Of a DNA stretch of 64,000 nt, positions 16,842 to 60,746 are shown piece after piece. Within the stretch, counting starts at the first letter, position 1; each line of letters opens with the position of its first letter. The stretch is from Torpedo marmorata (taxonomy: Eukaryota), in contig OZ360251.1 in NCBI GenBank assembly GCA_977017645.1, forward strand, positions 36,270,001-36,334,000, given 5' to 3'. The notes under the pieces were generated by a model, which saw only the letters and a list, made by a program, of their open reading frames with translations, did no database searches and had not been told where the DNA came from. The position numbers and the translations under genes were made by a program.

Positions 16842-16985
16842 CATAACCTTGATGAAGGGTTCAAGCCCGTAACGTCGGTTATGTATTTTTACCTTTGCTA
16901 TATAAAGGACACTGTTTAACCTGCTGAGTTTCTCCAGCTTTGTGTGTTTTTACTTCAACCACGGTGTCTGCAGACTTTCATGTTT
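16842..16985 (+). mobile_element. Penelope-like terminal repeat remnant with degenerate minimal hammerhead ribozyme
   Basis: CATAACC-TTGATGA-AGGGTTCAAGCCC-GTAACGTC-GGTTATG, followed by CTGCTGAGTTTCTCCAGC...CTGCAGAC. A partial inverted homolog lies at 49171-49275. Confidence 0.65.
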
Positions 16986-29505: not shown

Positions 29506-32500
29506 GTGAGTCTGGACATTTGTCTCAGCAGGGGCTACCCAACCTGAAATCACACGGGGAGGTCAGGGAACGTGAACAGGGAGAAAGAGGTTATTTAATT
29601 TGCAGGGTGGTTGATTAGCATAGCAATTTGCGCAACGCTATTACAGCGCCAGCGACCCGGGTTCGAATCCTGCGCTGTCTGTAAGGAGTTTGTACATTCT
29701 CCCCGTGTCTGCGTGGGTTTCCTCCGGTACTCTGGTTTCCTCCCACCCTCCAAAGACTGAATCTAAAGGCGGAGTACGTGGTTAATAGAAGGATTCTCAG
29801 CAGAGTGGAGAAATAGAGGGACCTTGGAGTCCAGGTCCTTAGATCCCTCAAGGTCACCACGCAAGTTGATAAGATGGTTAAGAAGGCGTAAGGTGTGCTG
29901 GTCTTCTTTAAGAGGTGTGAGGTGATATTTCAGCTCAGTTAAACTCAGGTTAGACCACACTTAGAATAGGCAGCCACAGTTTTGTAAGGGGGTAAAGGTA
30001 AAGGTTCCATTATTGTCACGTAATACTACATTTAGCATGTAACATACATGAAATTCTTTAATTTTGTCTACCGTAAGGCAGTCAAAGGGTCGCTATTTTG
30101 TCCAGCGCCCCTCACAGAAACCTACAGCACCTGGTGTTCCTTGGCGGTCTACCCTCCAAGTACTGACCAGTCCTGTGCCTGCTTAGCTTCCGAGATCAGA
30201 CAATCCCAGTCGTATTCAGGCTATTGGTGCTATTGGGAGATCATGTCTCACAAATTTGATTGTGATTTTTGAAGATGTTCGCTGAGCGGCACGTTAGCGT
30301 AGCGGTTAGCGCAATGCTGTTACAGCGCCAGCAATCGGGACCGGGGTTCGAATCCCACGCTGTCTGTAAGGAGTTTGTACGTTCTCCCTGTGTCTGAGTG
30401 GGTTTTCCCCGGGGGCTCTGGTTTCATCCCACCGTTCAAAATGTACCGGGGGTGTATGTCAATCAGGTGTAATTGGGCAGCACGGGCTCGTGGGCTGAAA
30501 GGGCCTGATACCGTGGTGCAAGTCTAAATATAAATGTGTCAAAGAAGGTTGCATACATAGATTTCAGCAAGGCATTCCATAACGTTCCACACGGTAGGCT
30601 GCTCTGGAATGTTAGATGACATGGGATCCAAGGAGAGACAGCTCCTGGTGTGGTCTGACCCAGAGAAAGGAGACTGGAACTGTGCACAGTGCTCCCGGTG
30701 TGGTCTGACCCAGGGATACAGAGGTGGGAACTGTGCACGGTGCTCCCGGTGTGGTCTGACCCAGGGATACAGAGGTGGGAACTGTGCACGGTGCTCCCGG
30801 TGTGGTCTGACCCAGGGATACAGAGGTGGGAACTGTGCACGGTGCTCCCGGTGTGGTCTGACCCAGGGATACAGAGGTGGGAACTGTGCACAGTGCTCCC
30901 GGTGTGGTCTGACCCAGGGATACAGAGGTGGGAACTGTGCACGGTGCTCCCGGTGTAGCCACCTCCACCTTACATCTATCACAGATAGGATTAACGTTAG
31001 GAAAAATACGAGCCAACCTGGCTTGCCCAGGGATTCTAACTTAGCGACAGGGATATCGGGAATGCTTGGTGCTCACAATGTGATCAGACACTAATTTTTA
31101 TCACTTTATTTTTCTTCAGGCCCATTCTGCTATCATGACCCAAAATGTGGTAAGTTGATCAACATTGTCACCGCTCAGATGCGACCTGGTGTCACGGTGA
31201 GTTAGTCACACTGTCCTGTCCCACTCTGGGACTGAGAGACTCCAGTCAGTGCACAGATATCCCCTTGAGAGTATGGGAACGGAGAGATACCAATCAGTGT
31301 ACAGATATCCCCTGAGAGACACCGGTCACTGTATAGATATCCCCCCCACTCCCCCAAGAGAGAGGGGCGGAGAGACACCAGTAAGATATCCCCCTGAGAG
31401 AGGGACGGAGAGACACTGGTCAATGTACAGATATCCCTCTGAGAGAGAGGGACGGAGAGACACCGGTCGGTGTACAGATATCCCTCTGAGAGAGAGGGAC
31501 AGAGAGACACTGGTCAGTGTACGGTCAGAGCCTAAAGACGAGCACTCAACGGCACAAGGACAGCTTCTTCCCCGCTGCCATCAGATTCCTGAATAATCAA
31601 TGAACCAAAGACACTGCCTTACTTTTCGTGCACTATTATTTATATTTTTTTTATAGTAATCTCGTAAGATGGTTATAATATGAATGTTTGCACTATGATG
31701 CTAACGCAAAACACCAAATTTCATGACTTGTTCATGACAATAAATTCTGATTCTGTACAGATATCCCCCTGAGAGAGGGACGGAGAGACACCGGTCAGTG
31801 TACTGATATGCCCCTGAGAGAGAGGGACGGAGAGACACCGGTCAGTGTACGGATATCCCCCTGAGAGAGGGATGGAGAGGCACCGGTCAGTGTATAGATA
31901 TCCCCCCCACCCCTCGAGAGAGAGAGGGACAGAGAGACACCAGTAAGATAACCCCCCGAGAGAGGGGCAGAGACACCAGTCAGTGTACAGATATCCCCGA
32001 GAGAGAGAGGGATGGAGAGGCACCGGTCAGTGTACAGATATCCCCCTTAGAGAGAGGGATGGAGAGATACCAGTCAGTGTACAGATATCCCCCTGAGAGA
32101 GAGGGGCGGAGAGATACCGGTCAGTGTACAGATATCCCCGAGAGAGAGAGGGATGGAGAGGCACCGGTCAGTGTACAGATATCCCCCTTAGAGAGAGGGA
32201 TGGAGAGATACCAGTCAGTGTACAGATATCCCCCTGAGAGAGAGGGACAGAGAGATACCGGTCAGTGTACAGATATCCCCCTGAGAGAGAGGGACGGAGA
32301 AATACCGGTCAGTGTACAGATATCCCCCTTAGAGAGAGGGACGGAGAGACACTGGTCAGTGTACAGATATCCCCCTGAGAGAGAGGGACGGAGAGATACC
32401 GGTCAGTGTACAGATATCCCCCTTAGAGAGAGGGACGGAGAGACACTGGTCAGTGTACAGATATCCCCCTGAGAGAGAGGGATGGAGAGACACCGGTCAG

Positions 32501-35500
32501 AGTACTGATATGCCCCTGAGAGAGAGGGACTGAGACACAACTTGGAGGAAGGGTTGGGGAGACCCCGGACAGTGTACCCATGACATGTCTGTCGTGATTT
32601 CTCCCCCAGATCCTCGTACATGGCCAAAGCAATATCCAAGCTGCAATGGCACCCACCAGTCTCCCATCGACGTGTTGACCTACCAGGCTCAGCGTAATGA
32701 CCACCTCGGTCCCTTCAACCTCACTGGCTACAGTAACCCGCAGTTCCTGCTCAACATCAAACACACCAAGCACACTGGTGAGCGCAGGTTCCAGCCTCTC
32801 CCAACCCCCGTGTCCAGCTCGTCCAAGGGCACCAGGAAAGTCCCAGGCTGCATTCCTAGCCTTGTTAACAACAACTTCCTGAGGTGGACGCTTGACCTCG
32901 CCCACCTCCTCTCCCGTCTACTTCACGAAGTGTGTCCCATAGGGAACATTGTGAATGGTAAGGGGTGTTGAAGGACAAAGGGACCTCGTGGTACAAGGGT
33001 AGGACACACATCATGAATGGCAGGGAGTGTCGAGGGACACTGCAGAGTTCCTGTCTCCATGTCGCTGGGTCAGACCACACCGGGAGCACCGTCCACAGTC
33101 CCTGTCTCCGTCTCCCTGGGTCAGACCACACCGGGAGCAACGTCCACAGTCCCTGTGTCCATCTCCCTGGGTCAGACCACACCGGGAGCACCGTCCACAG
33201 TTCCTGTCTCCATATCCCTGGATCAGACCACACCAGGAGCACCGTCCACAGTTCCCGTCTCCGTATCCCTGGGTCAGACCACACCGGGAGCATCGTGTAC
33301 AGTTCCCATCTCCGTATCCCTGGGTCAGACCACACCGGGAGCATCGTGTACAGTTCCTGTCTCCGTATCCCTGGGTCAGACCACACCGGGAGCATCGTGT
33401 ACAGTTCCTGTCTCCGTATCCCTGGGTCAGACCACACCAGGAGCACCGTCCACAGTTCCCGTCTCCGTATCCCTGGGTCAGACCACACCGGGAGCACCGT
33501 GCACAGTTCCCGTCTCCGCATCCCTGGGTCAGACCACACCGGGAGCACCGTGCACAGTTCCAGTCTCCGTATCCCTGGGTCAGACCACACCGGGAGCATC
33601 GTGTACAGTTCCCGTCTCCGTATCCCTGGGTCAGACCACACCGGGAGCATCGTGTACAGTTCCCGTCTCCGTATCCCTGGGTCAGACCACACCGGGAGCA
33701 TCGTGTACAGTTCCTGTCTCCGTATCCCTGGGTTAGACCACACCGGGAGCATCGTGTACAGTTCCTGTCTCCGTATCCCTGGGTTAGACCACACCGGGAG
33801 CATCGTGTACAGTTCCTGTCTCCGTATCCCTGGGTCAGACCACACCGGGAGCACCGTCCACAGTTCCCGTCTCCGTATCCCTGGGTCAGACCACACCGGG
33901 AGCACCGTGCACAGTTCCCGTCTCCGCATCCCTGGGTCAGACCACACCAGGAGCATCGTGCACAGTTCCAGTCTCTGTATCCCTGGGTCAGACCTCACCG
34001 GGAGCATCGTGTACAGTTCCCGTCTCCGTATCCCTGGGTTAGACCACACCAGGAGCACCGTCCACAGTTCCTGTCTCCGTATCCCTAGGTCAGACCACAC
34101 CAGGAGCATCGTGTACAGTTCCTGTCTCCGTATCCCTGGGTCAGACCACACCGGGAGCACCGTCCACAGTTCCTGTCTCCGTATCCCTGGGTCAGACCAC
34201 ACCGGGAGCATCGTGTACAGTTCCCGTCTCCGTATCCCTGGGTCAGACCACACCGGGAGCACCGTCCACAGTTCCTGTCTCCGTATCCCTGGGTCAGACC
34301 ACACCGGGAGCATCGTGTACAGTTCCTGTCTCCGTATCCCTGGGTCAGACCACACCGGGAGCACCGTCCACAGTTCCTGTCTCCGTATCCCTGGGTCAGA
34401 CCACACCGGGAGCATCGTGTACAGTTCCTGTCTCCGTATCCCTGGGTCAGACCACACCGGGAGCACCGTCCACAGTTCCTGTCTCCGTATCCCTGGGTCA
34501 GACCACACCGGGAGCATCGTGTACAGTTCCTGTCTCCGTATCCCTGGGTCAGACCACACCAGGAGCATCGTGTACAGTTCCTGTCTCCGTATCCCTGGAT
34601 CAGACCACACCAGGAGCACCGTCCACAGTTCCCGTCTCCGTATCCCTGGGTCAGACCACACCGGGAGCATCGTGTACAGTTCCTGTCTCCGTATCCCTGG
34701 GTCAGACCACACCAGGAGCACCGTCCACAGTTCCCGTCTCCGTATCCCTGGGTCAGACCACACCGGGAGCATCGTGTACAGTTCCTGTCTCCGTATCCCT
34801 GGGTCAGACCACACCAGGAGCACCGTCCACAGTTCCCGTCTCCGTATCCCTGGGTCAGACCACACCGGGAGCACCGTGCACAGTTCCCGTCTCCGCATCC
34901 CTGGGTCAGACCACACCGGGAGCACCGTGCACAGTTCCAGTCTCCGTATCCCTGGGTCAGACCACACCGGGAGCATCGTGTACAGTTCCCGTCTCCGTAT
35001 CCCTGGGTCAGACCACACCGGGAGCATCGTGTACAGTTCCCGTCTCCGTATCCCTGGGTCAGACCACACCGGGAGCATCGTGTACAGTTCCTGTCTCCGT
35101 ATCCCTGGGTTAGACCACACCGGGAGCATCGTGTACAGTTCCTGTCTCCGTATCCCTGGGTTAGACCACACCGGGAGCATCGTGTACAGTTCCTGTCTCC
35201 GTATCCCTGGGTCAGACCACACCGGGAGCACCGTCCACAGTTCCCGTCTCCGTATCCCTGGGTCAGACCACACCGGGAGCACCGTGCACAGTTCCCGTCT
35301 CCGCATCCCTGGGTCAGACCACACCAGGAGCATCGTGCACAGTTCCAGTCTCTGTATCCCTGGGTCAGACCTCACCGGGAGCATCGTGTACAGTTCCCGT
35401 CTCCGTATCCCTGGGTTAGACCACACCAGGAGCACCGTCCACAGTTCCTGTCTCCGTATCCCTAGGTCAGACCACACCAGGAGCATCGTGTACAGTTCCT

Positions 35501-38500
35501 GTCTCCGTATCCCTGGGTCAGACCACACCGGGAGCACCGTCCACAGTTCCTGTCTCCGTATCCCTGGGTCAGACCACACCGGGAGCATCGTGTACAGTTC
35601 CCGTCTCCGTATCCCTGGGTCAGACCACACCGGGAGCACCGTCCACAGTTCCTGTCTCCGTATCCCTGGGTCAGACCACACCGGGAGCATCGTGTACAGT
35701 TCCTGTCTCCGTATCCCTGGGTCAGACCACACCGGGAGCACCGTCCACAGTTCCTGTCTCCGTATCCCTGGGTCAGACCACACCGGGAGCATCGTGTACA
35801 GTTCCTGTCTCCGTATCCCTGGGTCAGACCACACCGGGAGCACCGTCCACAGTTCCTGTCTCCGTATCCCTGGGTCAGACCACACCGGGAGCATCGTGTA
35901 CAGTTCCTGTCTCCGTATCCCTGGGTCAGACCACACCGGGAGCATCGTGTACAGTTCCCGTCTCCGTATCCCTGGGTCAGACCACACCGGGAGCACCGTC
36001 CACAGTTCCCGACTTCGTATCCCTGGGTCAGACCACACCGGGAGCACCGTGCACAGTTCCCGTCTCCGTATCCCTGGGTTAGACCACACCGGAAGCACCG
36101 TGGAGATCCTTGGGGTGATACTGCACTGCGACAGCTGCCCACATCATACTAATGCCCCCTGATGACCTCTCCCCTTGCCTGTTTTGCAGTCAGAGTCACC
36201 ACAAACACCCAGATGGTGGTGAGTGGGGGTGGACTTCCCGGGGACTACCTCACCTCCCAGTTCCACTTCCACTGGGGCAACCAGACCACTGCGGGGGGGT
36301 CCGAACACAGGCTGGATGGACATCAGGCCAACATGGAGGTGAGGGGGAGATGGGAGAGGGGGAGAGAAGAAAGATGGGAAAAGGAGAGAGGAAATGGAGG
36401 GGAGAGTGGATGGAGGGGCAGAGGGAGGTAAAAGTTGGCCAGAGAGGGAGGGAAGGGAATGGTGGGGATAGAGGGAGGGGAAAAGCAGGTGGGACGGAGA
36501 GTGGGGGAGATGGGGTGGAGGGAGGGGAGAGGCTCAGAGAGAGGAGCGGTGCAAAGAGGAATGGAGGGTGAGGGGACGGCGATGGGGTGGAAAGAGGGGA
36601 GGGAGAGTATAGGGCATGTGAGGGAACGGCGTGGAGAGGAGTGGATTTGGGGAGGTGGGAGTTGCGGGAGGGGAGAGAGGATGGAGGGGATGAAGGGAGG
36701 GTTGGTGGGGAGGGGGTTGCGGGGAATGGACCACTGCTCCTCGCGGACTCTGACATCAGACCGAGCTCCTGGGACGATGACCCTTGAGTCATCCTGGGTG
36801 CCAACGGCTGACATCTGTCCACTGACCTCCCCAGGACAGCGACGGACCCCAGGGTCTCCCAGCACTGATCCCTTCCAGTTTCTCACCCCTGGGACCCCTG
36901 ACCTGCACTGTGGACCGCAACCTCTGACCTCGCTAAGCCTCTGTGTCACCATCCACAGCTCCATATCGTTAACATACGGAAGGATCCGAATATGCGCAAG
37001 GTCAGAAGTCAAACTGACGGATTCGCAGTGTTGAGCTTCCTCATTGAGGTACCACAGGGCGAGGGAGGGGGTGAGCATGTCTGGGGGAGAGAGAGCCGGA
37101 CGGGGGGAGAGCGGGAGGGGGGAGAACGGGAGGGGGGGGAGGCAGCATGGGGGGAGAGCGGGATGGGGGGAGAGCGGGACGGGGTGAGAGTGGGACGGGG
37201 AGATCGGGACAGGGAGAGCGGGACGATGGGAGCGGGACGTGGGAGCGGGATGGGGAGGGAGGGGAGGGGAGAGGGGTAGGGGAGGGGGAGGAGAGGGGGA
37301 GGGATGGCGAAGATGGGGAGAGAGGAAAATGAGAGCTGGGAAGGAGGGGCTGAGGGGTGCGAGCAGAGGGTGTGTTGACACAGATATGTAGCTGGGCAGA
37401 GGTGGTTTATTCAGGAAGAGAACATCCCTCCCTCTCACTGTGTCTCCCTCCGTTCCTGTCAAATTTCCTCTCTTTCTCTCTCCCTCTGCCTCTATTTGCC
37501 CCACTCTCGCTCCCTCTCTCCCTGTCTCTCTTATTCTCCCTCTCAGCTTTCTGTCTCTCTCTCTCTCTCTCCCCTTCTCACAATCCCTCTCTATCTCTCC
37601 CTCCATCCTGGTCTCAATTTCTGATTAACCTTGTCTCTCTTCCCTCCCCAACTAACTCTCCCTTGCTCTTACCCTCCCTGTCAGTCTCACCCTCCCTCCG
37701 TCTCACACGCTCCATCTCTCACCCTTCCTCCCTATCTCACTCCCTCTCTGTATCACTCTCCCTCTCCCTCAGTTAGTGATAGCCTTTTCCATTAAACTGA
37801 AGCATTCTTTCTCAGGTTGAACACAACATAACAGAGAATCCAGCCTGGAAAAATCTTACCAGTCTCATCAAACACCTTGGAGAAGATGGTATGTCCCCAA
37901 CAAAATATACAAAATATAACACAACTTCCCGTTCACTCTCGGGGTAGGGGGGGGTAAATATCTGTACACTGACTGCAGTCTCTCTGTTCCTCTCTCTCAG
38001 GGGGATATCTGTACAGTGACCAGTGTCTCTCTGTCCCTCTCCCTCAGTGGGATATCTGTCAACTGACCAGCGCCTCTCCATCCCTCTCAGGGGGATATCT
38101 GTACACTGGTGTCTCTCCATCACTCTCTCTCAAGGGGATATCTGTCCACTGACTGGTATCTCTCCGTCCCTCTCTCTCGGGGTGGATATCTGTACACTTA
38201 TCGGTGTCTCTCAGTCCTTCTCTCTCAGGGGGATATTGTCCACTGACCAATGTCTCTCAGTCCCTCTCTCTCAGGGGGATACCTATACACTGACTGGGGT
38301 CTCTCTGTCCCTCTCTCTCTGGGGGATATCTGTACACTAACCAGTGTCTCTCTCTGTCCCTCTCTCTCAGGGAGATATCTGTACAGTGACCGGTGTCTCT
38401 CAGTCCCTCTACCTCAGGGGGATATCTGTACACTGACCAATGTCTCTCAGTCCCTCTCAGTTTTGAATCCAACAAGGCCAGCTCACCTTGGATCCCATGT

Positions 38501-41500
38501 GATTTAACCTTCCGGACTAACCTGCCATGTGGGACCTTGTCAAAGACCTTGCTAATGTCCATGTAGACAACGTTCACTGCTCTGCCCTTACCACCCTCAT
38601 TGTCACTTCAAATAACTGTCAGATTTGTGATACACGATCTGCCACGTGCAAATCCATGTTGACCACCTCCAATTAGACCCTGTCCATCCAAATGCTGTCA
38701 AGGCTGCCAATCAGAATTCCCTCTGGTAATTTTCCAACCATTAACGTCAAACTCACTGGCCTGTCAGGTAGATAGGGTTGTAAAGAGAGCTTTTGGCCTT
38801 CATAAATCAAAGTATTGAGTATAGTAGTTGGGATGTTATGGTAAAGTTGTATAAGACATTGGTGAGGCCACATTTGGAGTACTGTGTGCAGTTTTGGTCA
38901 CCTAACTACAGGAAAGATATCAATAAGATGGAAAGAGTGCAGAGAAGATTTACTAGGATATGTCTGGACTTGAGGAACTGAGTTATAGGGAAAGGTTAAA
39001 CAGGTTAGGACTTTTGATATGCCTATCAATGACTTACGCAAGGCAAGAAGTACTGGAGATCAACAGGCTTTTATTAACAGTAATTCAGGCCAGGGCCAAG
39101 CTACATTAGACCTGTTGATACCTGCTGGACTGTCCCGGAACTGAGGGTGGAGTCAGTGGCTCAAGGCCTTTATTCCAGGGGAGAGGGGGAGGAGTCACCG
39201 GGACAGACAGACAGGACATGATCAGGCTTGCCCCTAGCCCATAGTATACAACATATACAACAGTGGTACAACAGTGGTTTACCACATTCACCCCTTCTTT
39301 TAAAACAAGTCCGACGGGGGGGGCGAAGTGGCCACCGTAATTAATAAATCACACAGTTATCCCGCGTGCACACAAATATATACAAATATTATCTACATAG
39401 TAGGGTTGCCGCAACCATCACATCTACAGGTTGAGTCTATCCGGCGGTCGGGCTCGCCGCTGCGACCTACATAAGACCTGCGGTGACGGCGCGGGCGATG
39501 ATGGTAGTTGTGGTTGTGGAACGAGGGTGAGGGGGGTCCGGGTCCGGGTTGCCTCCTGCCTGGCTTGTGGCTCGTCCAGCTCTGGCTGAGGCGTTGTACC
39601 CGCCGTGCTGGGAGGCGGGGAGGGTGGAGGGAGCAGCTGTGACCAGGCGTTCCCGCTGTCGGGGACCTCTTCCAACGCTCCTGCAGGCGCCAGGTCCCGT
39701 ATTGATACCGTGTCTTCCCGCCCGTCGGGGAAGACCACGAATGCGTACTGCGGGTTCGCATGGGTCAGCTGCACCCTCTCGACTAAGGACTCGTACTTGC
39801 TACTCCGAAGGTGTTTGCGGAGTAGCACCGGTCCCGGGGACGTCAGCCAGGCAGGGAGGGTAGTTCCGGTGGTCGATTTTCTAGGGAAGGAAAAAAGACG
39901 TTCGTGAGGGGTAGCGTTTGTGGAGGTACATAGCAGGGATCGTATAGAGTGGAGGGCGTCCGGGAGAACCTCCTGCCAGCGGGCCACTGGCCACCCTTTT
40001 GATTTCAGGGCCAGTAGCGTAGCTGTCCACACAGTGGCGTTCTCCCTCTCCACCTGTCCATTTTCCCGTGGGTTGTACCCCGTGGTTCTACTGGTGGCGA
40101 TGCCTCGGGTCTGCAAGTACTGCCGCATTTCCTCACTCATGAATGCGGATCCCCGGTCGCTATGGACATAGCAGGGGAACCCGAATAAGGTGAATACCTG
40201 GCGAAGGGCTTTAATAGCCGAGGCCGCCGAGGTATCGGGGCAGGGGATAGCAAAGGGGAACCGCGAGTACTCGTCGATAATATTAAGAAAGTACACTTTG
40301 CGGTTCGTGGAGGGAAGGGGGCCCTTGTAGTTGATACTGAGACGTTCAAAAGGGCGGGTGGCCTTGACCAGCTGTGCCTTGTCGGGGCGGTAGAACTGTG
40401 GTTTGCATTCCGCACAGACTCGGCAGCTGCTGATCATGGTCCTGACCTCTTCCAGGGAGTATGGCAGGTTCCGTGACTTCACGAAGTGAAAGAGCCTGGT
40501 AACTCCTGGGTGGCAGAGGTCGTCATGTAGGGAGTATACCCGGTCGATCTGCGCGCTGGCGCACGATCCCCGGGATAGAGCATCGGAGGGCTCGTTGAGC
40601 TTCCCGGGCCGGTAAAGGATGTCGTAATTGTAGGTGGAGAGTTCTATTCTCCACCTCATGATTTTATCATTTTTGATTTTACCCCGCTGCTGGTTGTTAA
40701 ACATGAATGCGACGGAGCGCTGGTCCGTCAGCAGGGTAAAATGTTTTCCGGCGAGATAGTGCCTCCAGTGCCGAATAGCCTCAACTATGGCCTGGGCCTC
40801 TTTCTCTACCGCGGAGTGCCGAATTTCGGGGCCTTGAAGGGTGCGTGAGAAAAACGCTACCGGTCTTCCCGCCTGGTTGAGGGTAGCAGCCAGTGCGAAG
40901 TCCGATGCGTCACTCTCCACCTGAAAAGGTACCGACTCGTCCACCGCGTGCATCGCTGCTCGGGCGATGTCCCCTTTTATGAGGTCGAAAGCCTCACGTG
41001 CCTCCGCTGCCAGGGGAAACTTGGTGGACTTGACGAGGGGTCGGGCTTTGTCCTCGTAGTTTGGGACCCACTGCGCATAATACGAGAAGAACCCGAGGCA
41101 TCGTTTAAGGGCTTTGGGGGTATGGGGAATCGGAAGTTCCAACAGGGGGCGCATGCGGTCGGGGTCGGGTCCAATCACCCCGTTCTCCACGACGCACCCC
41201 AGGATAGCGAGTCGGGTAGTCCCGAACACGCATTTCTCCTTGTTATATGTGAGGTTCAGCGTCTTGGCCGCTTGCAGGAACTTCCGAAGGTTCCTATCAT
41301 GGTCCTGGCGATCATGACCGCAAATGGTAATGTCGTCCAGGTACGGGAAGGTGGCTGTTAGTTTGAACTGGTCAACGATCCTGTCCATCTCCCGTTGAAA
41401 CACAGATACCCCGTTTGTTACCCCGAAGGGGACGCGCAGGAAATGGAATAACCTGCCGTTCGCCTCGAAAGCGGTGTACGCTCGGTCTTCCCGGCGAATC

Positions 41501-44500
41501 GGAAGTTGGTGGTATGCCGACTTTAGGTCTATAGTGGAAAAGATTTTATAATGTGCAATCTGGTTGACCATATCCGCGATTCTCGGCAGCGGATAGGCAT
41601 CCAGTTGCGTGAACCTGTTAATGGTTTGACTGTAGTCCACCTTGGCCCCGTTCTTCACTACGACTACCTGAGCTCTCCAGGGGCTGCTACTGGGTGCGAT
41701 GATCCCTTCCCCCCAGTAGACGATGCACCTCCGCCTTAATGAATGCCCTGTCCCCTGCATTGTATCGCCTACTTTTAGTTGCCACAGGCTTACAGTCAGG
41801 GGTCAGGTTGGCGAAAAGTGACGGGGGTTGGATCTTCAGCGTGGAGAGACCACAGGTAGTTTGGGGCGTATTGCTCAAATACTGGGGGTTAGTCACTACA
41901 ATCGGAGGGTGGGGCCCATCATAGTGCATGGTGACGCTTCGCAGATGGCTTTGGAAGTCCAGTCCCAGCAATACAGGAGCACACAAACGGGGCATGACTA
42001 ACAACGAAAACCCCCGATATTCCGTGCCCTGTACCACTATGTTCGCCACACAACCCCCCCGGATGTCTGTTGTGTGTGTTCCAGACGCCATGGCCACCCT
42101 CTGGCTTACCGGTACAATTGTGAGGCCACAGCGCTGGACGGTGTCCGGATGAATAAAACTTTCAGTACTGCCTGTGTCGAACAGGCAGGTAGTCTTATGC
42201 CCCTCAACTAATATGTCCATCATCGATCTGGACAGCTGATGGGGCGCGCTCTGATCCAGCGTCACGGATGCCAGGGTCGGGACGTGGTCTTGATCCGACG
42301 TGCCGTCTTGATCCGACGCTGACGAAGATGGCTGCCCCCGTAGGTCGCACGTGTCGCTGCAAGATGGCGGCGCCGGAAGTGCTGGAAGTGCCGCGGTGAG
42401 GCTATAAAATGGCCACGCCGGAAGTGACGGTGTCGGAAGTGCCGGGGGCCAAGATGGCCGCCTCCATTCCTCGCACGAGGTCACCGCCGGAAGTGACGAC
42501 AGGTAAGATGGCTGCTCCCTTACTTCGCACGCGGCGCTGCTCGGACCCGCACGCGGCTTGGAGCGGCAGGCCTTAGCGTAGTGGCCTTTCTTGCCGCAGC
42601 TAGAACAAGTCGCGTCTCGGGCCGGGCAGCGTTTGAGTGGGTGTTTGTCGAGCCCGCAGAAGTAACACTTCTCGGGCTCCCGGGTAACGGCCGCGGCGGT
42701 TAACTCATGGATGGCGTTGGCGGGCTCCTGGGTAGCGGCGGCCAACTCACGGATAGCGGCGGCGGTCGGGTCGTGGTAGACGGCAGCAGCAGTCACGTCG
42801 CTTGCAGAGCTGGCGGTTGGGGCGATCCACGAGGCAGGCTGCGCCTGCATAGCGTCAGAGTTCCTGAGCGCAGCCTCCAGTGTGAGGGCCGTCTGGACGG
42901 TAGATTTAAGGGTCAGGTCGGCGTGTTCCAGCAATCGCTGGCGAATGTAAACCGACCTGAGCCCCATAATAAACGTGTCCCTTGCCAACAGTTCAGCGTG
43001 CTGCTCAGCCGTCAGGGCTCGGCAATCGCACGCCCGCACCAGTAGCTGCACGTCCTGGATGTACTCGGAGATCGACTCTCCGGGTCGCTGGCGCCGTTGC
43101 GATAACCTGTGCCTCGCGTAGACCGCGTTCACAGGCGTCAGGTACAGTCTTTTAAGGGCTCCCAAGGCATCATCGTACGTTTGACAGTCTCTGACGGTGT
43201 TATACACCCGTGGGCTTACCCTAGACATGAGGATGTCGAGTTTGTCTTCGTCGCTGACCGCTCTGGTCGACCTCAGGAACGGTTTGAAGCAGCGTAGCCA
43301 GAGTTCAAAGGTACTTGCGGCGTCTTGGGCCAGGGGGTCGATGTCTAGCTTGTCTGGCCTCAAAAAATTCTCCATCAGACTTAAAACTGTTAATAAAATT
43401 GATATGCCTATCAATGACTTACGCAAGGCAAGAAGTACTGGAGATCAACAGGCTTTTATTAACAGTAATTCAGGCCAGGGCCAAGCTACATTAGACCTGT
43501 TGATACCTGCTGGACTGTCCCGGAACTGAGGGTGGAGTCAGTGGCTCAAGACCTTTATTCCAGGGGAGAGGGGGAGGAGTCACCGGGACAGACAGACAGG
43601 ACATGATCAGGCTTGCCCCTAGCCCATAGTATACGACATATACAACAGTGGTACAACAGTGGTTTACCACAACTTTATTCCCTGGAGTGTAGAAGAATGA
43701 GGGGAGATTTGATAGAGGTATTTAAAATTATGAGGGGGATAGACAGAGTAAATGTAGGTTGGCTTTTTCCACTGAGGGTAGGTGAGATACAAACCAGAGG
43801 ACATGGGTTAAAGGTGAAAGGGGAAAGGTTTAGGGGGAACTTCTTCACACAGAGAGTGGTGGGAGTGTGGAACGAGCTGCCAGCTGAAGTGGTGAATGCG
43901 GGCTCAATTTTAACATTTAAGAGGAATTTGGACAGGTACGTTGATAGGAGAGGTATGGAGGGATATGGACTGGGTGCAGGTCAGTGGGACCGGGCAGAAT
44001 AATAGTTTGGTACAGACTGGAAGGGCTGATGGGGCCCGTTTCTGTGCTGTAATGTTCTATGGTTCTCCAGTCTTCTGGCACTTCACCCGAGGACAAAGAT
44101 GATGCAAAATCTTGGCAAGGGACTCCACAATTTCTACCCCAGCTTCCCACAGGGTGAGAGGATGCACTTCATCAGGCCCAAGGGTTTTGTCCACCTCAAT
44201 CAGCTCCAAGGCCACCAACACCTCTACCCTGGTGGTTCTTGAATGCTCCAAGACATCACGATATTCCAATTCCTGCCTTCCACGAGCTCCTCCACCGTAA
44301 AGACTGATGAGGTATTCATTAAAAATCTCACTGACCTCCACACCAACACAGACTTGTGGATCTTTAATGGGTCCAATTCTCCCCCCCTGCCACCCATCAA
44401 CTCTTCATATAGCTGTAGAATTTCTTCCTTTGTCCTCCTGGCCAACTCCATCTTATGTTCTTTTTAGCCATCATGCATTCATGTACACTGACCGGTGTCT

Positions 44501-47500
44501 CTCCGTCCCTCTCTCTCTCAGGGGGATATCTGTACACTGACCGGGGTCTCTCCACCACCCCCTCTCTCAGTCTGTACACTTACAGGTGTGGTCCTTGATC
44601 TCTCAGCGGATATCTGTACACTGACCAGACTCTCAGGGGGATATCTGTACACTGACCGGTGTCTCTCAGTCCCTCTCTCTCTCTCAGGGGGATATCTGTA
44701 CACTGACCAGAGTTACTGGGCAGGAGGGAGGGTGGTGCGGGAAGTTCTGTAAACTGCGTACTGGGAAGCTAAGATTTGCATCATGCCTGACCTGTTCACC
44801 CCCATTCCTGGGGCTCTGTTCTGCAGGTGATATGCTGCCACTCAATGGGACCATCTCCCTGATGGATCTGATCAGTGGAGTCAACCTGACCAGGTACTAC
44901 CGTTACAACGGCTCCTTCACCACCCCCTTGTGCGATGAGGGTGTCCTCTGGACCGTCTTCGAGGAGCCCATCCGCCTCAACGCCTCACTGGTGTGTACAC
45001 CCTCCTGGTGTGAGAGGGAATGTGTGATGGGACGATGTGGAGGGAACTTCACTGTGTGCCTGGTGCAGGGAGTGCCTGGGGACGGTGCGGAGGGAGCTTC
45101 ACTGTGTGCCTGGGTCAGGGAGAGTCTGGGGACGGTGCGGAGGGAGCTTCACTGTGTGCCTGGTGCAGGGAGTGCCTGGGGACGGTGCGGAGGGAGCTTC
45201 ACTGTGTGCCTGGTGCAGGGAGTGCCTGGGGACGGTGCGGAGGGAGCTTCACTGTGTGCCTGGTTCAGGGAGTGTCTGGGGACGGTGCGGAGGGAGCTTC
45301 ACTGCGTGCCTGGTGCAGGGAGTGCCTGGGGACGGTGCGGAGGGAGCTTCACTGTGTGCCTGGTGCAGGGAGTGCCTGGGGACGGTGCGGAGGGAGCTTC
45401 ACTGTGTGCCTGGGTCAGGGAGAGTCTGGGGACGGTGCGGAGGGAGCTTCACTGTGTGCCTGGTGCAGGGAGTGCCTGGGGACGGTGCGGAGGGAGCTTC
45501 ACTGTGTGCCTGGTGCAGGGAGTGCCTGGGGACGGTGCGGAGGGAGCTTCACTGTGTGCCTGGTTCAGGGAGTGTCTGGGGACGGTGCGGAGGGAGCTTC
45601 ACTGCGTGCCTGGCGCAGGGAGCTTCACTGTGTGCCTGACTCAGGGAGTGTGTGATGGGAGAGTGTAGAGGTAGGGTGTGATGGGACAGTGCGGAGGGAC
45701 TTCACTGTGTGCCTGACCCCTCCCTTTTTTATTTATTATTCTTCAAATTCAAATATTTCAAGTACTACGTAAGTCTACAAATCAGACCACACACACAGAA
45801 CATAGTTTTAAATTAGAACATGATTACCTCTGTCAATGATACCGAGAAGCCCTTGGGGAGCCCACTGTTCCCGGAAACCCTCCAAGGTGCCCGTGAGCAC
45901 TGAGTGCTCTTTCTCCAGGGATGCACGGGCACACAGGTGTCCTCGGCAGAGGGGCAGGCAGTCAGCCCAAGTTAAACCCTCGACTGCCCGCTGCCTGGAC
46001 CCATGGATGGCCATCTTGGCCGGGCCCAGTATCAGACCGACGAGGACAACCCTCGACCGACCCTCCCTCCTCCGTACCGGGTGCCCAAAGATCGGGAGTG
46101 TGGGGCTGAAATGCAGCCAGAACTTGAGCAGCAACCCCTTCAAGCACACGAGCAGGGGCTGCAACCTCTCACACTTCATATCTCCGTGAAACACGGTCTC
46201 AACCAAGCCTCAGAAGTAACAGGCGGCTGAGACTTCTGTAACACCCTCCACCTCAGGTCCCTGATGTATAGGGGGAGGACTCCTGTATATACAGACCTCG
46301 CTACTAGGGAGTAAAACAGACCACTACGGTGAGTCTGGACAGCAGACAATGGCAAAGAAGTGGATGGTGTGCAGGAGCAGTCAATATACATCCCGCCTCC
46401 CCGTATCCCAGAGCCACACACGAGTGGACTCGTGGGTGGGACCCATCCTCGAGAGAGAACTCAGGGCCTGGACCCAATGAGTAATTCCAGCCGTGCGGGG
46501 GTTAGCACAGTCGGGACAACTCCACATCCACGAGCTTCCTCTGCACCGAGGGGCAGGTTGGGGATCAGCCTCCATTACATTGCCCTCCTCCGGTGGAGGA
46601 GCTTTCTCCGGTGAACAGCACCATTCAGTTCCTCCAACATCAGGGGAGCATCCAGACACTTAAAGACCACTGGGTCAACCTGCGTTAGGGCCTCCAGAAG
46701 GAATGAACCAAGTCTCTGATTTGCTCTGGGTACCTGAGAGAAAACTGTCATCAACTAGCCACTCCACGAGGTGCCGACGGACACCCCGCCAATTCTCGAA
46801 TGAGTAGAAGGGTGAGGCAGGGACTGGAACATATTCAAGCACTCAGCCATAGACCTAAATGAATATGCAACAGGTGGCACCGACTTCATCAAGACTTGCG
46901 TGGACGAGTGTGTGCCCACGCGCAAATACCGGGTGTTCCCCAACCAGAAGTCCTGGATAAATCAGAGAATTCGCAACCTGCTGAGGACGAGAACAAGGGC
47001 GTTTAAGGCCGTGGACCGGGATCTTTACAAGAAGTCCAGGCACGACCTGCGGAAGGCCATCTCTGAAGCAAAGTGGCAATTCCGGAGGAAGCTACAGACA
47101 GAGACAGATACACGCCAGCTATGGCAGGGAGTGCAGGCCATTACAGCCTACAAAGCGAGGGCGAACACTATAGACGGCTGTGATGCTTCACTACCCGATG
47201 AGCTGAACACCTTCTATGCCCGCTTTGAGAAGGAGAACAAAACAGTGCCTACTAGAATCCCTGAAAAGGCTGAGGACCCTGTGATATCTGTCTCTGAGGG
47301 CGACGTCAGAACATCATTCAAGAGGGTGAACCCTCGCAAGGCGTCAGGCCCTGACAGCGTACCTGGCAGGGTACTGAAAATCTGCGCCAACCAACTAGCC
47401 GGAGTGCTCACGGACATTCTCAACCTCTCATTGCAGCAGTCAGAGGTTCCCACCTGCTTCAAAAGGGCATCAATCATCTCGGTACCCAAGAAGAGTAGTG

Positions 47501-59500: not shown

Positions 59501-60746
59501 TAGAAGGAGATCATTAGGAATAGTAGGCAGGATGTTGGACAGAATCACCCGCTGCTCAGCAGACTCAAAAGCGTCCACCTGCAGGAACATCCCACCCACC
59601 TCAATCCCCTTACTGATGGCCAGGGCCGCCGCCTTAGCAGTTTTTAAATAAATCACAGCCTTCCCATCCATCTTTGCTGCTATGGCTGAGGGGCCAACAA
59701 CCCTCACCAGTCTCCAGCTTTGAAAGTCAGTTGCAAGTAGATCTTCACCGCACGTCCACCATCCAGCGATCCAAAAGGACTCCGGGTTACAGGGGCCGCT
59801 GAAGCTGCTGCTGCCGCATAACTCCTGGAGGGCCCAGGTCTTTCAGGAGACTGGGCGGACATATTTGAAACAGTTCAAAATCCAAGATGAGATCGAGAAA
59901 GTTCTGTTGATTGAAGAGTGTTGAAGGGAAGTCCTCCAACCACTGTGCAAGCTGGCTCCCTGGCAATCTTCCAACACCTCCTGAAAGTTAGGCCAAGGCT
60001 TTCAGGCCTTCGAAATACCACTGATTTACCTTCTTTAACGAACCACTAAGGTTAACAAACAATGGAACAGGCAGGGGAATCGTTGACTTTGAGATGTTAA
60101 CGAGCAAATTAGGCAAAAAGCTGGTGTTTTGCAGTGGAGGAGGTCCACCCTGGCAGACTGCCAGCCAATTACTCGATCCGCGTCATTGGAAAACCAGAGT
60201 TAAATTCCCAAAGCAGCAAACTCCTCTTCACGAAAAGTCCTTCAGAGCACTCCCACAATACTAACACAAATCCTCCTTCAGTCTCCAAGACTTTTGAAAG
60301 AGGAGTGATTATCTTCCAAATTCCTTCCCAGCGATGCAGACCGTGACTTCACTCTGTGTCTGACCCTGGGAGTGTGTGATGGGACAGTGCAGAGGGAGCT
60401 TAACTCTGTGCCTGACCCGGGAGTACGTGACGGGAGGGTGCGGAGGGAGCTTCACCCTGACCTCTCTCCCCTCTCCTCCTCACAGGTTGAAACATTCTTC
60501 ACTGACCTGTACGTCAACAGGAGCCAAGGTATCCTCCTGCATAACACCTTCCGTCAGCCGCAGAAGAACACCAACCGTGTCTGGGCCTCACAGGGAGCAT
60601 CCAGAGCAACTACGACCCTCGCCCCCATCCTTACTGTCTTTCCCACAGCGGGAAGCCCCCTTACAAGCTGGGCCCACCCTCTCTGCCTGCTGCTGCCACT
60701 GGCCTCGATCTGGTTGGGGGGCTTGAGCCCATCCTGCACTGAGTAG
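29448..60746 (+). CDS. Secreted/GPI-type alpha-carbonic anhydrase (CA4/CA15 group), spliced: join(29448-29505,31120-31149,32610-32777,36190-36338,36959-37048,37816-37888,44827-44990,60486-60746), 330 aa
   Basis: All seven introns are GT-AG with compatible phases, giving a 993-nt open frame. Signal peptide, [20 protein letters not shown] (H94/H96), GSEH, ELHIV (H119), [17 protein letters not shown] and a hydrophobic C-tail. The CY..DPKC motif resembles CA15; orthology is not established. Confidence 0.93.
29991..30229 (-). mobile_element. 5S rRNA-derived SINE, copy 2
   Basis: Same 5S head and tail as 1803-2038, ending in (TTTACC)n. Confidence 0.85.
30288..30535 (+). mobile_element. tRNA-derived V-SINE-like element
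   Basis: GGCACGTTAGCGTAGCGGTTAGCGC...GGTTCGAATCCC head followed by the V-type core. Confidence 0.8.
30643..30956 (-). repeat. 51-bp minisatellite, about 6 units, inverted relative to 33046-36100
   Basis: Reverse complement of GGGTCAGACCACACCGGGAGCACCGTGCACAGTTCC. Confidence 0.95.
31120..31149 (+). CDS. CA coding exon 2, 30-nt microexon ([10 protein letters not shown])
   Basis: TTTTTCTTCAG| acceptor, TG|GTAAGT donor, phase 1-1. Carries the Tyr7 equivalent and two Cys. Confidence 0.9.
31235..32540 (+). repeat. 45-47-bp minisatellite (GTACAGATATCCCCCTGAGAGAGAGGGACGGAGAGACACCGGTCAGT), interrupted by a Rex1/Babar 3' end at about 31525-31755
   Basis: Direct tandem units. The inserted piece matches about 48585-48815. 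Confidence 0.92.
32610..32777 (+). CDS. CA coding exon 3
   Basis: [22 protein letters not shown]...KHTKHT; CCCCAG| acceptor and TG|GTGAGC donor. Confidence 0.93.
33046..36100 (+). repeat. 51-bp tandem array, about 60 units, in CA intron 3
   Basis: Unit GGGTCAGACCACACCGGGAGCATCGTGTACAGTTCCTGTCTCCGTATCCCT. Confidence 0.98.
36190..36338 (+). CDS. CA coding exon 4 (zinc ligands H94, H96; E106)
   Basis: VRVTT...[28 protein letters not shown]; TTTTGCAG| acceptor and GAG|GTGAGG donor. Confidence 0.96.
36959..37048 (+). CDS. CA coding exon 5 (H119)
   Basis: LHIVNIRK...[11 protein letters not shown]; CCACAG| acceptor and GAG|GTACC donor. Confidence 0.93.
37816..37888 (+). CDS. CA coding exon 6
   Basis: [24 protein letters not shown]; TTTCTCAG| acceptor and TG|GTATGT donor. 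Confidence 0.9.
37958..38460 (-). repeat. 45-47-bp minisatellite, inverted relative to 31235-32540; resumes at 44482-44710
   Basis: CTCTCAGGGGGATATCTGTACACTGACC units. Confidence 0.9.
39015..43671 (-). mobile_element. Full-length Gypsy LTR retrotransposon B in CA intron 6
   Basis: 272-bp LTRs at 39015-39286 and 43400-43671 with two visible substitutions. TSD ACTTT. PPT at 39287-39301. The polyprotein is closely related to that of element A. Confidence 0.97.
39424..43375 (-). pseudogene. Gag-Pol of Gypsy B with one frameshift near 41712
   Basis: [13 protein letters not shown]...LFDTGS is in one frame and YLDD/RNase H/integrase in another. The shift falls in a G6 run. There is also a short in-frame deletion (KNGAKVDY vs KGAKSRMVVDY) and the first integrase Asp reads Asn (INYKG). 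Confidence 0.9.
44827..44990 (+). CDS. CA coding exon 7 (T199/T200 loop)
   Basis: [26 protein letters not shown]; TTCTGCAG| acceptor and CTG|GTGTGT donor. Confidence 0.96.
45010..45720 (+). repeat. 50-bp minisatellite (GGGACGGTGCGGAGGGAGCTTCACTGTGTGCCTG...), block 1
   Basis: Exact 50-nt period. The same family occurs at 52970-53748 and 60346-60462. Confidence 0.95.
45721..48942 (-). mobile_element. Tx1-type element 1, internally deleted, with nested Rex1/Babar
   Basis: T-rich tail at 45721, ORF2 C-terminus ([14 protein letters not shown]...FREQWAP), 5' end CACGGTCTGCATC. Flanked by ACTTCACTGTGTGCCTGACCCC and ACTTCACTCTGGGTCTGGCCCC. Confidence 0.8.
46830..48821 (+). mobile_element. Rex1/Babar-clade LINE, 5'-truncated
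   Basis: [60 protein letters not shown] and KFANDT motifs; (TTCTGA)n tail. Confidence 0.92.
48965..52970 (-). mobile_element. Tx1-type element 2, non-autonomous composite
   Basis: Poly-T at 48965 plus about 200 nt homologous to the other Tx1 3' ends. The 5' end TGTCTGTATCGAGCTGGGAG resembles GGTCTGCATCGCTGGGAAG of element 3. The interior holds a 33-bp array. Confidence 0.6.
49302..52265 (+). repeat. 33-bp tandem array, about 90 units
   Basis: Unit GGACCGCTCCTCGCCCAACAGACCCCGGGAACA. Confidence 0.98.
52970..53748 (+). repeat. About 51-bp minisatellite, block 2
   Basis: GTGATGGGACGGTGCAGAAGGAGCTTCACTCTGTGTCTGACCCAGGAG units. Confidence 0.95.
53749..60345 (-). mobile_element. Tx1-clade LINE, element 3 (both ends present, decayed, endonuclease region missing, nested CR1)
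   Basis: ORF1 remnants at about 59035-59890 ([35 protein letters not shown]). ORF2 RT at 55026-56648 ([39 protein letters not shown]). Exact 19-bp TSD ACTTCACTCTGTGTCTGAC at 53730-53748 and 60346-60364. Confidence 0.93.
56648..58652 (+). mobile_element. CR1 LINE, 2-kb 3' portion nested in Tx1 ORF2
   Basis: RT ORF at 57335-58573 ([35 protein letters not shown]); (GTTATATG)n tail. Confidence 0.95.
60486..60746 (+). CDS. CA terminal coding exon 8 with GPI-like hydrophobic tail
   Basis: CCTCACAG|VETFFTDLY...HNTFRQPQ...RVWAS, a Ser/Thr/Pro spacer, [18 protein letters not shown] stop. Confidence 0.9.
   Translation, partial: VETFFTDLYVNRSQGILLHNTFRQPQKNTNRVWASQGASRATTTLAPILTVFPTAGSPLTSWAHPLCLLLPLASIWLGGLSPSCTE

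What the first reader, a model, noticed from the sequence alone, without database searches (positions are those of the whole stretch)
45699..60364. Minisatellite-targeting Tx1 retrotransposon family: three same-site, same-orientation insertions
Seen: CA intron 7 begins and ends with the same ~50-bp minisatellite, and three distinct Tx1-type elements interrupt it. All are on the minus strand, and each tail starts right after CTTCACT(C/G)TGTG(T/C)CTGAC(CCC)-like sequence (45721, 48965, 53749). The motif reappears at each 5' junction (48943, about 52971, 60346). Element 3 has an exact 19-bp TSD, ACTTCACTCTGTGTCTGAC. The three 3' ends have diverged, so these look like independent events. Known: Tx1-clade LINEs are often sequence-specific (Keno/U2 snRNA, Mutsu/5S rDNA, Dewa/tRNA spacers, Kibi and Koshi/microsatellites). 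Inference: this family's APE endonuclease recognises a dispersed intronic minisatellite as a safe harbour. I do not know of this target being described.
Basis: partly seen in the sequence, partly recalled or inferred. Interest (0 to 1): 0.85.

Follow-up and report, generated by a model that had tools for sequence, protein, structure and literature searches.

The report
Jumping genes that target one minisatellite
Three old, broken copies of related Tx1-type retrotransposons sit at the same position and on the same strand of a 51-base tandem repeat in one intron, which points to a new target for a group already known to aim at repeats.

Summary
The last intron (44991-60485) of a CA4-like carbonic anhydrase gene holds three minus-strand Tx1-clade remnants. 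Each has a poly(A) tail starting 18-21 nt into the same core of a 51-bp minisatellite, and the core restarts at each 5' end. Chance for same phase and strand alone is 0.0036. Element 3's RT is 63% identical to Xenopus Tx1L and 74% to a stingray protein. Elements 1 and 3 diverged under purifying selection (pN/pS 0.54; 0, 1, 0 and 7 of 150 neutral simulations as low), which argues against segmental duplication. Corrections: these are diverged families, not one; all are defective; no endonuclease domain survives, so 'APE recognises the repeat' is inferred from Tx1L; the 19-bp TSD is weak evidence inside a tandem array; 'dispersed' and genome-wide specificity were untestable. New detail: all three keep their 5' end, and elements 1 and 3 share 24 identical nt across the 5' junction. 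Ten paper searches found no description of this target, but satellites are already listed as Tx1 targets (PMC4494074) and Repbase/Dfam were not available. Verdict: probably a new target for a known kind.

The parts
44827..44990 (+). Penultimate exon of a CA4-like carbonic anhydrase gene (host gene); start approximate
   Evidence: Pfam PF00194 E 2.4e-14; best PDB match CA IV; donor GT at 44991
44991..45720 (+). Left minisatellite array (50/51-bp units). Most units have lost the GACCC end of the core; the last unit (45700-45720) keeps it and abuts element 1's tail
45721..48943 (-). Element 1: Tx1 remnant. Poly(A) tail, 90-nt 3' UTR with AATAAA, ORF2 C-terminus, RT deleted, ORF2 aa about 320-470 (Tx1L numbering), 14-nt 5' terminus joined directly to ORF2
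46833..48821 (+). Other LINE nested inside element 1 (RT domain, hexamer-repeat tail; Rex1-like by recall); ends approximate
   Evidence: Pfam RVT_1 E 6e-21; Tx1 ORF2 continues on both sides
48930..48943 (-). 14-nt 5' terminus of element 1, identical to that of element 3 (60333-60346)
   Evidence: Exact matches at these two places only; 24 nt identical across the junction
48944..48964 (+). 21-bp lone target core between element 1's 5' end and element 2's tail (TSD-sized spacer)
48965..52969 (-). Element 2: Tx1 remnant. Tail, 3' UTR and last about 36 codons of ORF2 (48965-49175); interior replaced; ORF1 start and 5' UTR (52266-52969)
   Evidence: 3' end vs elements 1 and 3: 0 of 300 shuffles each. 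5' 320 nt vs element 3: global score 60, shuffle maximum 43.5, 0 of 1000; best of 748 window tile comparisons; ORF1-start peptides align
49176..49300 (+). Fragment of another interspersed repeat inside element 2
   Evidence: 83% match to 16919-16985
49301..52265 (.). 33-bp minisatellite, about 90 copies, inside element 2; not significantly related to the target repeat
   Evidence: shuffle fractions 0.53 and 0.22
52970..53748 (+). Middle array of the 51-bp target minisatellite (about 14-15 units)
53749..60346 (-). Element 3: most complete Tx1 remnant. Tail, 91-nt 3' UTR, ORF2 from aa 416 to the end with frameshifts and stops, no endonuclease, ORF1 remnant (start about 59862, zinc knuckle), about 480-nt 5' UTR
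54141..54468 (.). Assembly gap (328 N) inside element 3, followed by about 80 bp of unassigned sequence and a (TA)n run
55777..56646 (-). Open RT domain of element 3 (290 aa)
   Evidence: Pfam RVT_1 E 1e-32; 63% to Tx1L P14381, 74% to XP_072896886.1
56650..58653 (+). Other LINE (CR1-type by recall) nested in element 3, where the endonuclease region is missing
   Evidence: Pfam RVT_1 E 1e-28; related copies elsewhere in the window
60347..60485 (+). Right minisatellite units (2.2 copies) and splice acceptor; 60346-60364 is the right copy of the 19-nt repeat
60486..60746 (+). Last coding exon of the host gene (open to the stop, hydrophobic C-terminus as in GPI-anchored CAs, by inference)
   Evidence: Open frame in phase with the previous exon; no Pfam match of its own

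Best explanation
A lineage of Tx1-clade LINEs close to Xenopus Tx1L, in what is probably a ray or other cartilaginous fish, inserts by target-primed reverse transcription at a fixed register of a 51-bp minisatellite. Inferred mechanism: the ORF2 APE endonuclease nicks the plus strand at the end of the core (after GAC or GACCCC), the 3' OH primes reverse transcription on the poly(A) tail, and the second nick falls 18-23 nt upstream, which duplicates the core. Each insertion thus recreates a target, so later insertions stack head to tail. Element 2 probably came first (its 5' flank keeps the canonical AG before the core); element 1 then entered the core copy at element 2's tail and left the 21-bp spacer; element 3 entered another unit. 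All three then decayed through point mutations, kilobase internal deletions and nested insertions, and the intron grew from about 1.6 kb to 15.5 kb. Shown: clade, junction geometry, separate source lineages for elements 1 and 3, decay. Inferred: the nicking enzyme, nick positions, order of events, genome-wide preference.
For: 3 of 3 Tx1 remnants in the window abut the core; tblastn with element 3's RT finds no other Tx1-like RT, only two L1-like copies at 34-35% identity more than 20 kb from the nearest core with up to 2 mismatches. Target arrays are 3.3% of the window minus the elements (10% with related arrays); same strand and phase within 3 nt has probability 0.0036. The RT groups with Tx1L, sturgeon, turtle and stingray sequences at 99/97 support, sister to the stingray protein at 98/97. 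Tx1L endonuclease nicks almost only at its own target in vitro (PMC1950540). Elements 1 vs 3: pS 0.315, pN 0.170 over 260 codons; pN/pS 0.54, reached by 0, 1, 0 and 7 of 150 neutral simulations in four mutation models. Each copy has different deletions and nested inserts. Tandem insertions sandwiching a TSD are described for Tx1-mobilised SINEU-3 (PMC4494074). AATAAA precedes all three tails.
Against: One locus, three copies, and two of them share one site, so the events are not fully independent. No endonuclease domain survives. The excess of third-position changes alone is weak (66 of 169, p 0.067), and element 2 is too short to test (44-81 of 150 simulations as low). Target copies flanking elements 1 and 2 are inexact. 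The 3' junctions vary by 3 nt. About 66 units of a related 51-mer in and just upstream of the same gene carry no Tx1, although their core differs. No second locus was found: two junction-peptide searches, a linker-peptide search and one DNA scan returned no junction.
Confidence: 0.78

Rival explanations
1. Weak preference plus selection and a local hotspot: the lineage inserts widely with a short consensus that happens to occur once per unit. Antisense copies survive in the intron, and the cluster reflects open or GC-rich repeat chromatin.
For: All three are antisense to the host gene, as selection on intronic LINEs would favour (established knowledge). Crocodilian SINEU families range from 13% to 90% on-target (PMC4494074). 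The 3' junction varies by 3 nt.
Against: Selection explains strand but not phase, nor insertion next to a lone 21-bp core. The 5' junctions also agree within 1 nt. The two nested non-Tx1 LINEs in this intron went into Tx1 bodies, not into the core.
Confidence: 0.12
2. The real target is a larger repeat (a DNA transposon or other element) of which the 51-mer is an internal tandem repeat, as Tx1L targets Tx1D and Tx1-Mar targets a Mariner.
For: The nearest characterised relative, Tx1L, inserts in a piggyBac-derived element, and several crocodilian Tx1 families target DNA transposons (PMC4494074). That Tx1D holds internal tandem repeats is recalled.
Against: The array runs to within about 30 nt of both splice sites, and the intron ends show no inverted repeat (704 of 2000 shuffles score as well). 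Rfam finds no RNA gene there.
Confidence: 0.06
3. One insertion was multiplied by tandem or segmental duplication inside the array and then decayed.
For: Tandem arrays recombine readily. Elements 1 and 3 share 24 nt across the 5' junction, a stop at the same codon and the same short linker.
Against: Synonymous excess between elements 1 and 3; 21% and 32% body divergence against near-identical cores; no shared nested insert; 5' UTRs of elements 2 and 3 are far diverged and differ in length. Distant Tx1-like elements also have a short linker. The shared stop could be a CpG hotspot (inferred).
Confidence: 0.03
4. Assembly artefact joining repeats through the minisatellite.
For: N gap inside element 3 and four other gaps in the window.
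Against: Five of six junctions lie over 400 bp from the gap, the flanking exons are in phase, and the elements differ too much to be collapsed reads.
Confidence: 0.01

Closest known systems
Tx1L of Xenopus laevis (ORF2 = P14381)
   Same: 63% identity over the RT; same clade at 99/97; colinear ORF2 including the C-terminal Cys/His finger; sequence-specific insertion into a repeat (PMC1950540, PMC4494074).
   Different: Tx1L targets the transposon Tx1D; here the target is an intronic 51-bp minisatellite. The linker after the RT thumb is about 70 aa shorter in elements 1 and 3. No intact copy here.
Tx1-Mar and SINEU-3 of crocodilians (PMC4494074)
   Same: Several diverged Tx1 families share one repeat target, with fixed orientation per site and tandem insertions sandwiching a TSD.
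   Different: Target is Mariner-N4_AMi; some have U1/U2-derived heads, whereas Rfam finds no RNA-gene head here. Sequences not available for comparison.
Satellite-targeting Tx1 families ('Sat' in the Fig. 3 legend of PMC4494074)
   Same: Tx1 clade with a tandem-repeat target.
   Different: Family names, hosts and repeat units unknown to me: the figure and supplements could not be read. The paper's text does not mention sharks (0 occurrences). Identity with this lineage is not excluded.
Kibi and Koshi (TC and TTC microsatellites), Keno (U2 snRNA)
   Same: Tx1-clade, APE-type, target-specific (PMC4494074, PMC3812793, PMC4640811).
   Different: Target here is a 51-bp unit, neither a microsatellite nor an Rfam RNA gene.
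Hebe of Adineta vaga (PMC2861651)
   Same: Copies keep their 5' ends and die by internal deletion.
   Different: Jockey clade, subtelomeric, no sequence-specific target reported in the passages read; deletions 12-200 bp against kilobases here.

Membership tests
Tx1 clade non-LTR retrotransposon | RT groups with Tx1L apart from L1 | tested here: met
   Tree of 29 RT rows (20 of the 120 listed protein hits, chosen by me for spread; 6 of 16 loci; 2 window L1s; element 3): clade with Tx1L at 99/97
Tx1 clade non-LTR retrotransposon | ORF1 with RNA-binding domain and CCHC zinc knuckle | tested here: met
   zf-CCHC 21.1 bits, cut-off 20.8; atlas look-alikes 0.91-0.93, one cluster with RRM_1 on 18% of members, a lead only
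Tx1 clade non-LTR retrotransposon | APE endonuclease at the ORF2 N-terminus | tested here: inconclusive
   Region deleted in all three copies: ORF2 starts at aa about 320 (element 1) and 416 (element 3); relaxed tblastn with four N-terminal queries finds no remnant in the intron
Tx1 clade non-LTR retrotransposon | C-terminal Cys/His finger and poly(A) tail | tested here: met
   Finger aligns with Tx1L in elements 1 and 3; AATAAA and A-tail in 3 of 3
Target-specific Tx1 family (criterion of PMC4494074) | Over 20% of genomic copies flanked by one sequence type | not testable with these tools
   3 of 3 in this window; no eukaryote genome collection on hand
Target-specific Tx1 family (criterion of PMC4494074) | Fixed junction position and TSD | tested here: met
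   3' junctions within 3 nt, 5' junctions within 1 nt; TSD length 18-23, formally confounded by array periodicity
Tx1L proper | Insertion in the transposon Tx1D | tested here: not met
   Flanks are a 51-bp array without terminal inverted repeats at the intron ends; Tx1D sequence itself was not available
Keno | U2 snRNA gene target | tested here: not met
   No U2 match in the window or near the two 5' regions scanned at E up to 10
Kibi / Koshi | (TC)n or (TTC)n target | tested here: not met
   Flanks are 51-bp units
Catalogued Repbase/Dfam Tx1 family of cartilaginous fish | Nucleotide identity to a deposited consensus and same target | not testable with these tools
   Neither library is on hand

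The most novel reading that the evidence does not exclude
A long-lived, multi-family Tx1 lineage of rays has specialised on a gene-associated minisatellite and makes mostly 5'-complete copies because its RNA begins with a conserved terminus, possibly preceded by target sequence, that guides 5' joining, as the short rDNA extension does for R2. Element 1's 14-nt terminus fused to mid-ORF2 would then be a template jump during reverse transcription rather than a later deletion, and the 5'-side 'TSD' copies would be partly RNA-templated. The fact that element 1's 5'-side core lacks the two variants of its 3'-side core and resembles element 3's fits this. Such a system would be an APE-type element with R2-like 5' precision and a driver of intron growth at minisatellites.
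Probability: 0.15. Interest if true: 0.7.

Novelty: new member of a known kind. Interest (0 to 1): 0.45.

Why it matters
Tx1-clade endonucleases have switched targets many times, so each new enzyme-target pair near Tx1L (63% RT identity, with published biochemistry) helps map how APE specificity changes. A target kept by several diverged families implies long-term specialisation on a repeat that lies inside genes, which tests the idea that multicopy targets are harmless refuges. Here about 14 kb were added to a 1.6-kb intron. Because the target is a defined 18-21-nt core, the claim can be tested with one genome search and one nicking assay. It does not change the known picture: Tx1 targeting of satellites, microsatellites and transposons is already in print.

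Tried and rejected
Looking for a second locus: a plus-strand junction peptide (30 candidates, none at E up to 10); a minus-strand junction peptide against 1.84 billion representatives (3 hits, none holding the junction: one bacterial-type repeat protein and two tandem-repeat translations of unknown origin, not used as evidence); the ORF2 linker peptide (119 candidates, none at E up to 1); a 23-nt minisatellite pattern in GTDB contigs (0 matches); the RT in GTDB contigs (16 loci, 34-44% identity, 0 of 16 with the core); the array translation in the ESM Atlas (nothing above 0.90). These libraries hold little shark or ray DNA, so the blanks say little. Metagenome and viral contig collections stayed unchecked. 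Idea that the 14-nt 5' terminus derives from the minisatellite: rejected, 13% of shuffles and 13-28% of 1096 Tx1-body 14-mers score as well. Idea of a ribozyme or RNA-gene head: no Rfam match near gathering score; five folds, z between -0.01 and -1.51. Idea that the 33-bp array derives from the 51-mer: not significant. Transposon ends around the array: none. No structure or complex prediction was run, as no endonuclease domain exists to fold.

Full report
Setting. The window looks like a repeat-rich vertebrate locus. The nearest named relative of element 3's RT is a red stingray protein (74%, XP_072896886.1), so a ray or other cartilaginous fish is likely; this is an inference. A plus-strand carbonic anhydrase gene runs through the region: exons with CA motifs at about 32613, 36189 and 36960, an exon at about 44827-44990 matching Pfam Carb_anhydrase and CA IV best among 54 PDB sequences matched, and a last exon from 60486. 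The intron in question is 44991-60485. 'Intron 7' agrees with my recall of CA4 structure but was not counted out.

Observation. The intron reads: left array 730 bp, element 1 3223 bp, a 21-bp spacer, element 2 4005 bp, middle array 779 bp, element 3 6598 bp, right units 139 bp. T-tails begin 21, 21 and 18 nt after the start of the core CTTCACTCTGTGTCTGAC or its variants, and the core restarts at each 5' end. With up to 2 mismatches the core occurs 17 times, all in this intron, none in 100 shuffles. Element 3's exact 19-nt repeat is real. It is weak evidence alone, since the 18-mer is exact in 7 middle-array units and a tandem array mimics a TSD. The lone 21-bp core between elements 1 and 2, and the agreement of all six junctions, are the stronger signs. 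Random insertion gives the same strand and a 3-nt phase span with probability 0.0036. The arrays are 3.3% of the window without the elements, or 10% with related 51-mers. These figures are after the fact and treat the events as independent, which is generous for elements 1 and 2.

What the elements are. Element 3's RT matches 1279 proteins at E up to 1e-30 among 7746 candidates, 120 listed, mostly turtle. In a 29-row tree (20 of those 120 chosen for spread, 6 of 16 GTDB loci, two window L1s) it is sister to the stingray protein (98/97) inside a clade with Tx1L, sturgeon and turtle sequences (99/97). Element 3 keeps a 5' UTR, a broken ORF1 with a zinc knuckle and ORF2 from Tx1L aa 416 on. A nested LINE lies where the endonuclease should be, and 58654-59080 is unassigned. 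Element 1 keeps aa about 320-470 and the C-terminus, lacks the RT, and is split by another LINE. Element 2 was the doubtful one, with only about 210 bp of 3' end (0 of 300 shuffles against each neighbour). Its last 700 bp prove to be a diverged Tx1 5' UTR and ORF1 start: global score 60 against a shuffle maximum of 43.5 (0 of 1000), the best of 748 window tile comparisons, with matching ORF1-start peptides; local alignments were only marginal (1 of 300 and 2 of 300). No endonuclease remnant exists in any copy.

Independence. Elements 1 and 3 differ at 21% of coding sites. pS is 0.315 and pN 0.170 (Fisher p 2.7e-5). Neutral simulations with transition and CpG bias gave mean ratios of 0.70-0.89, and 0, 1, 0 and 7 of 150 runs fell to the observed 0.54. 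The simple third-position test was weak (p 0.067). Element 2's 36 codons are uninformative. The ORF2 ends are 65%, 67% and 79% identical pairwise. So these are separate source lineages sharing a target, not one duplicated insertion. Against this reading, elements 1 and 3 share a stop at one codon and a short linker; distant Tx1-like elements also have a short linker, and the stop may be a CpG hotspot, which I could not test.

Mechanism. By analogy with Tx1L, whose endonuclease nicks almost only at its target (PMC1950540, passages), the enzyme nicks the plus strand at the end of the core, the tail is copied from there, and a second nick 18-23 nt upstream duplicates the core. Regenerated cores allow stacking, as described for SINEU-3 (PMC4494074, section 14). 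Element 2's 5' flank has the canonical AG before the core while the spacer does not, so element 2 probably preceded element 1. All of this is inference from junctions. One unexplained detail: all three copies keep their 5' end, and element 1's 14-nt terminus, identical to element 3's, is joined straight to ORF2 near aa 320. Later microhomology-type deletion is the simpler reading, given kilobase deletions in every copy and the Hebe precedent (PMC2861651, passages). A template jump guided by the RNA's 5' end is the bolder one (R2's 5' rDNA extension is described in PMC13708176, passages). The terminus is not derived from the repeat and shows no known RNA structure. Element 1's 3'-side core carries two variants shared by the left array that its 5'-side core lacks; later homogenisation or RNA templating could each explain it.

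Comparison with what is known. PMC4494074 (abstract, passages, sections 14-16; figure and supplements not readable) gives Tx1 targets as Tx1D, U2, microsatellites, DNA transposons and LTR elements, and its Fig. 3 legend adds U5, 5S and satellites. PMC3812793 and PMC4640811 (passages) list microsatellite and U2-satellite targeting and state the multicopy-refuge idea. PMC8455134 notes Tx1 repeats in whale shark and Callorhinchus (one passage). PMC10620051 and bioRxiv 10.1101/2025.06.08.657570 report abundant tandem repeats in elasmobranch genomes and have no occurrence of Tx1 (passages). PMC1919474, PMC3747384, PMC5753468 and PMC8869645 (passages) add nothing on this target. Kojima and Fujiwara 2004, Christensen 2000 and Garrett 1989 were not read; Dewa's tRNA-spacer target and the names Rex1 and CR1 for the nested LINEs are recalled. 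Ten searches found no paper on this target, but the library lacks most subscription journals and Repbase Reports, where such families are usually filed (recalled).

Limits. Every attempt to find a second locus failed for want of suitable data. 'Dispersed' rests only on a related 51-mer upstream of and inside the same gene (shuffle fraction 0.0035) and on my recall that such repeats are common in sharks and rays.

Verdict. A real feature, well supported at this locus: a Tx1L-related lineage that most likely targets a 51-bp minisatellite core (confidence about 0.78). It is a new member of a known kind, perhaps already catalogued.

Noticed in passing
window 33041-36102 and 30641-30956: A related 51-bp minisatellite (60 and 6 copies; the long array on the opposite strand, in an earlier intron of the same gene) with a variant core and no Tx1 insertion; a natural negative control for nicking assays.
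   Followed up: partly
window 49301-52265: A homogeneous 33-bp minisatellite of about 90 copies (92% matches) fills the place of element 2's coding region; origin unexplained, not related to the target repeat.
   Followed up: partly
window about 46383 and about 54825: Elements 1 and 3 carry TGA at the same ORF2 codon while neighbouring codons differ synonymously.
   Followed up: partly
window 9880-13785 (+) and 39424-43444 (-): Two LTR-retrotransposon pol regions (protease, RT, RNase H, integrase) in opposite orientation, one a 1301-codon open frame; the second lies between exons of the carbonic anhydrase gene.
   Followed up: no
window 4819-7580 (+) and 18795-21325 (-): Two L1-like LINE copies about 84% identical in protein, with endonuclease and RT, far from the target core.
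   Followed up: partly
window 31227-32539, 37958-38458, 44485-44710: A second minisatellite family with a 47-bp unit recurs around and inside the same gene.
   Followed up: no
window 30119-30237 (-): 5S rRNA-like sequence, 44.7 bits against a gathering score of 38, possibly a pseudogene or SINE head.
   Followed up: no
window 31528-31755 and 48586-48813: A 94%-identical short copy of the 3' end of the LINE nested in element 1, so that family was active after element 1 arrived.
   Followed up: no
L001, L004/L005, L009 (GTDB contigs CBDAUV010000045.1, CBDAUV010000004.1, CBDAUV010000067.1): Contigs filed under a bacterial MAG carry same-strand, head-to-tail runs of distant Tx1-like LINEs 6-10 kb apart: likely eukaryote contamination, and perhaps another site-specific lineage.
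   Followed up: partly
window 58654-59080 and 54469-54550: Unassigned sequence inside element 3 with no match elsewhere in the window beyond low-complexity CT runs.
   Followed up: partly
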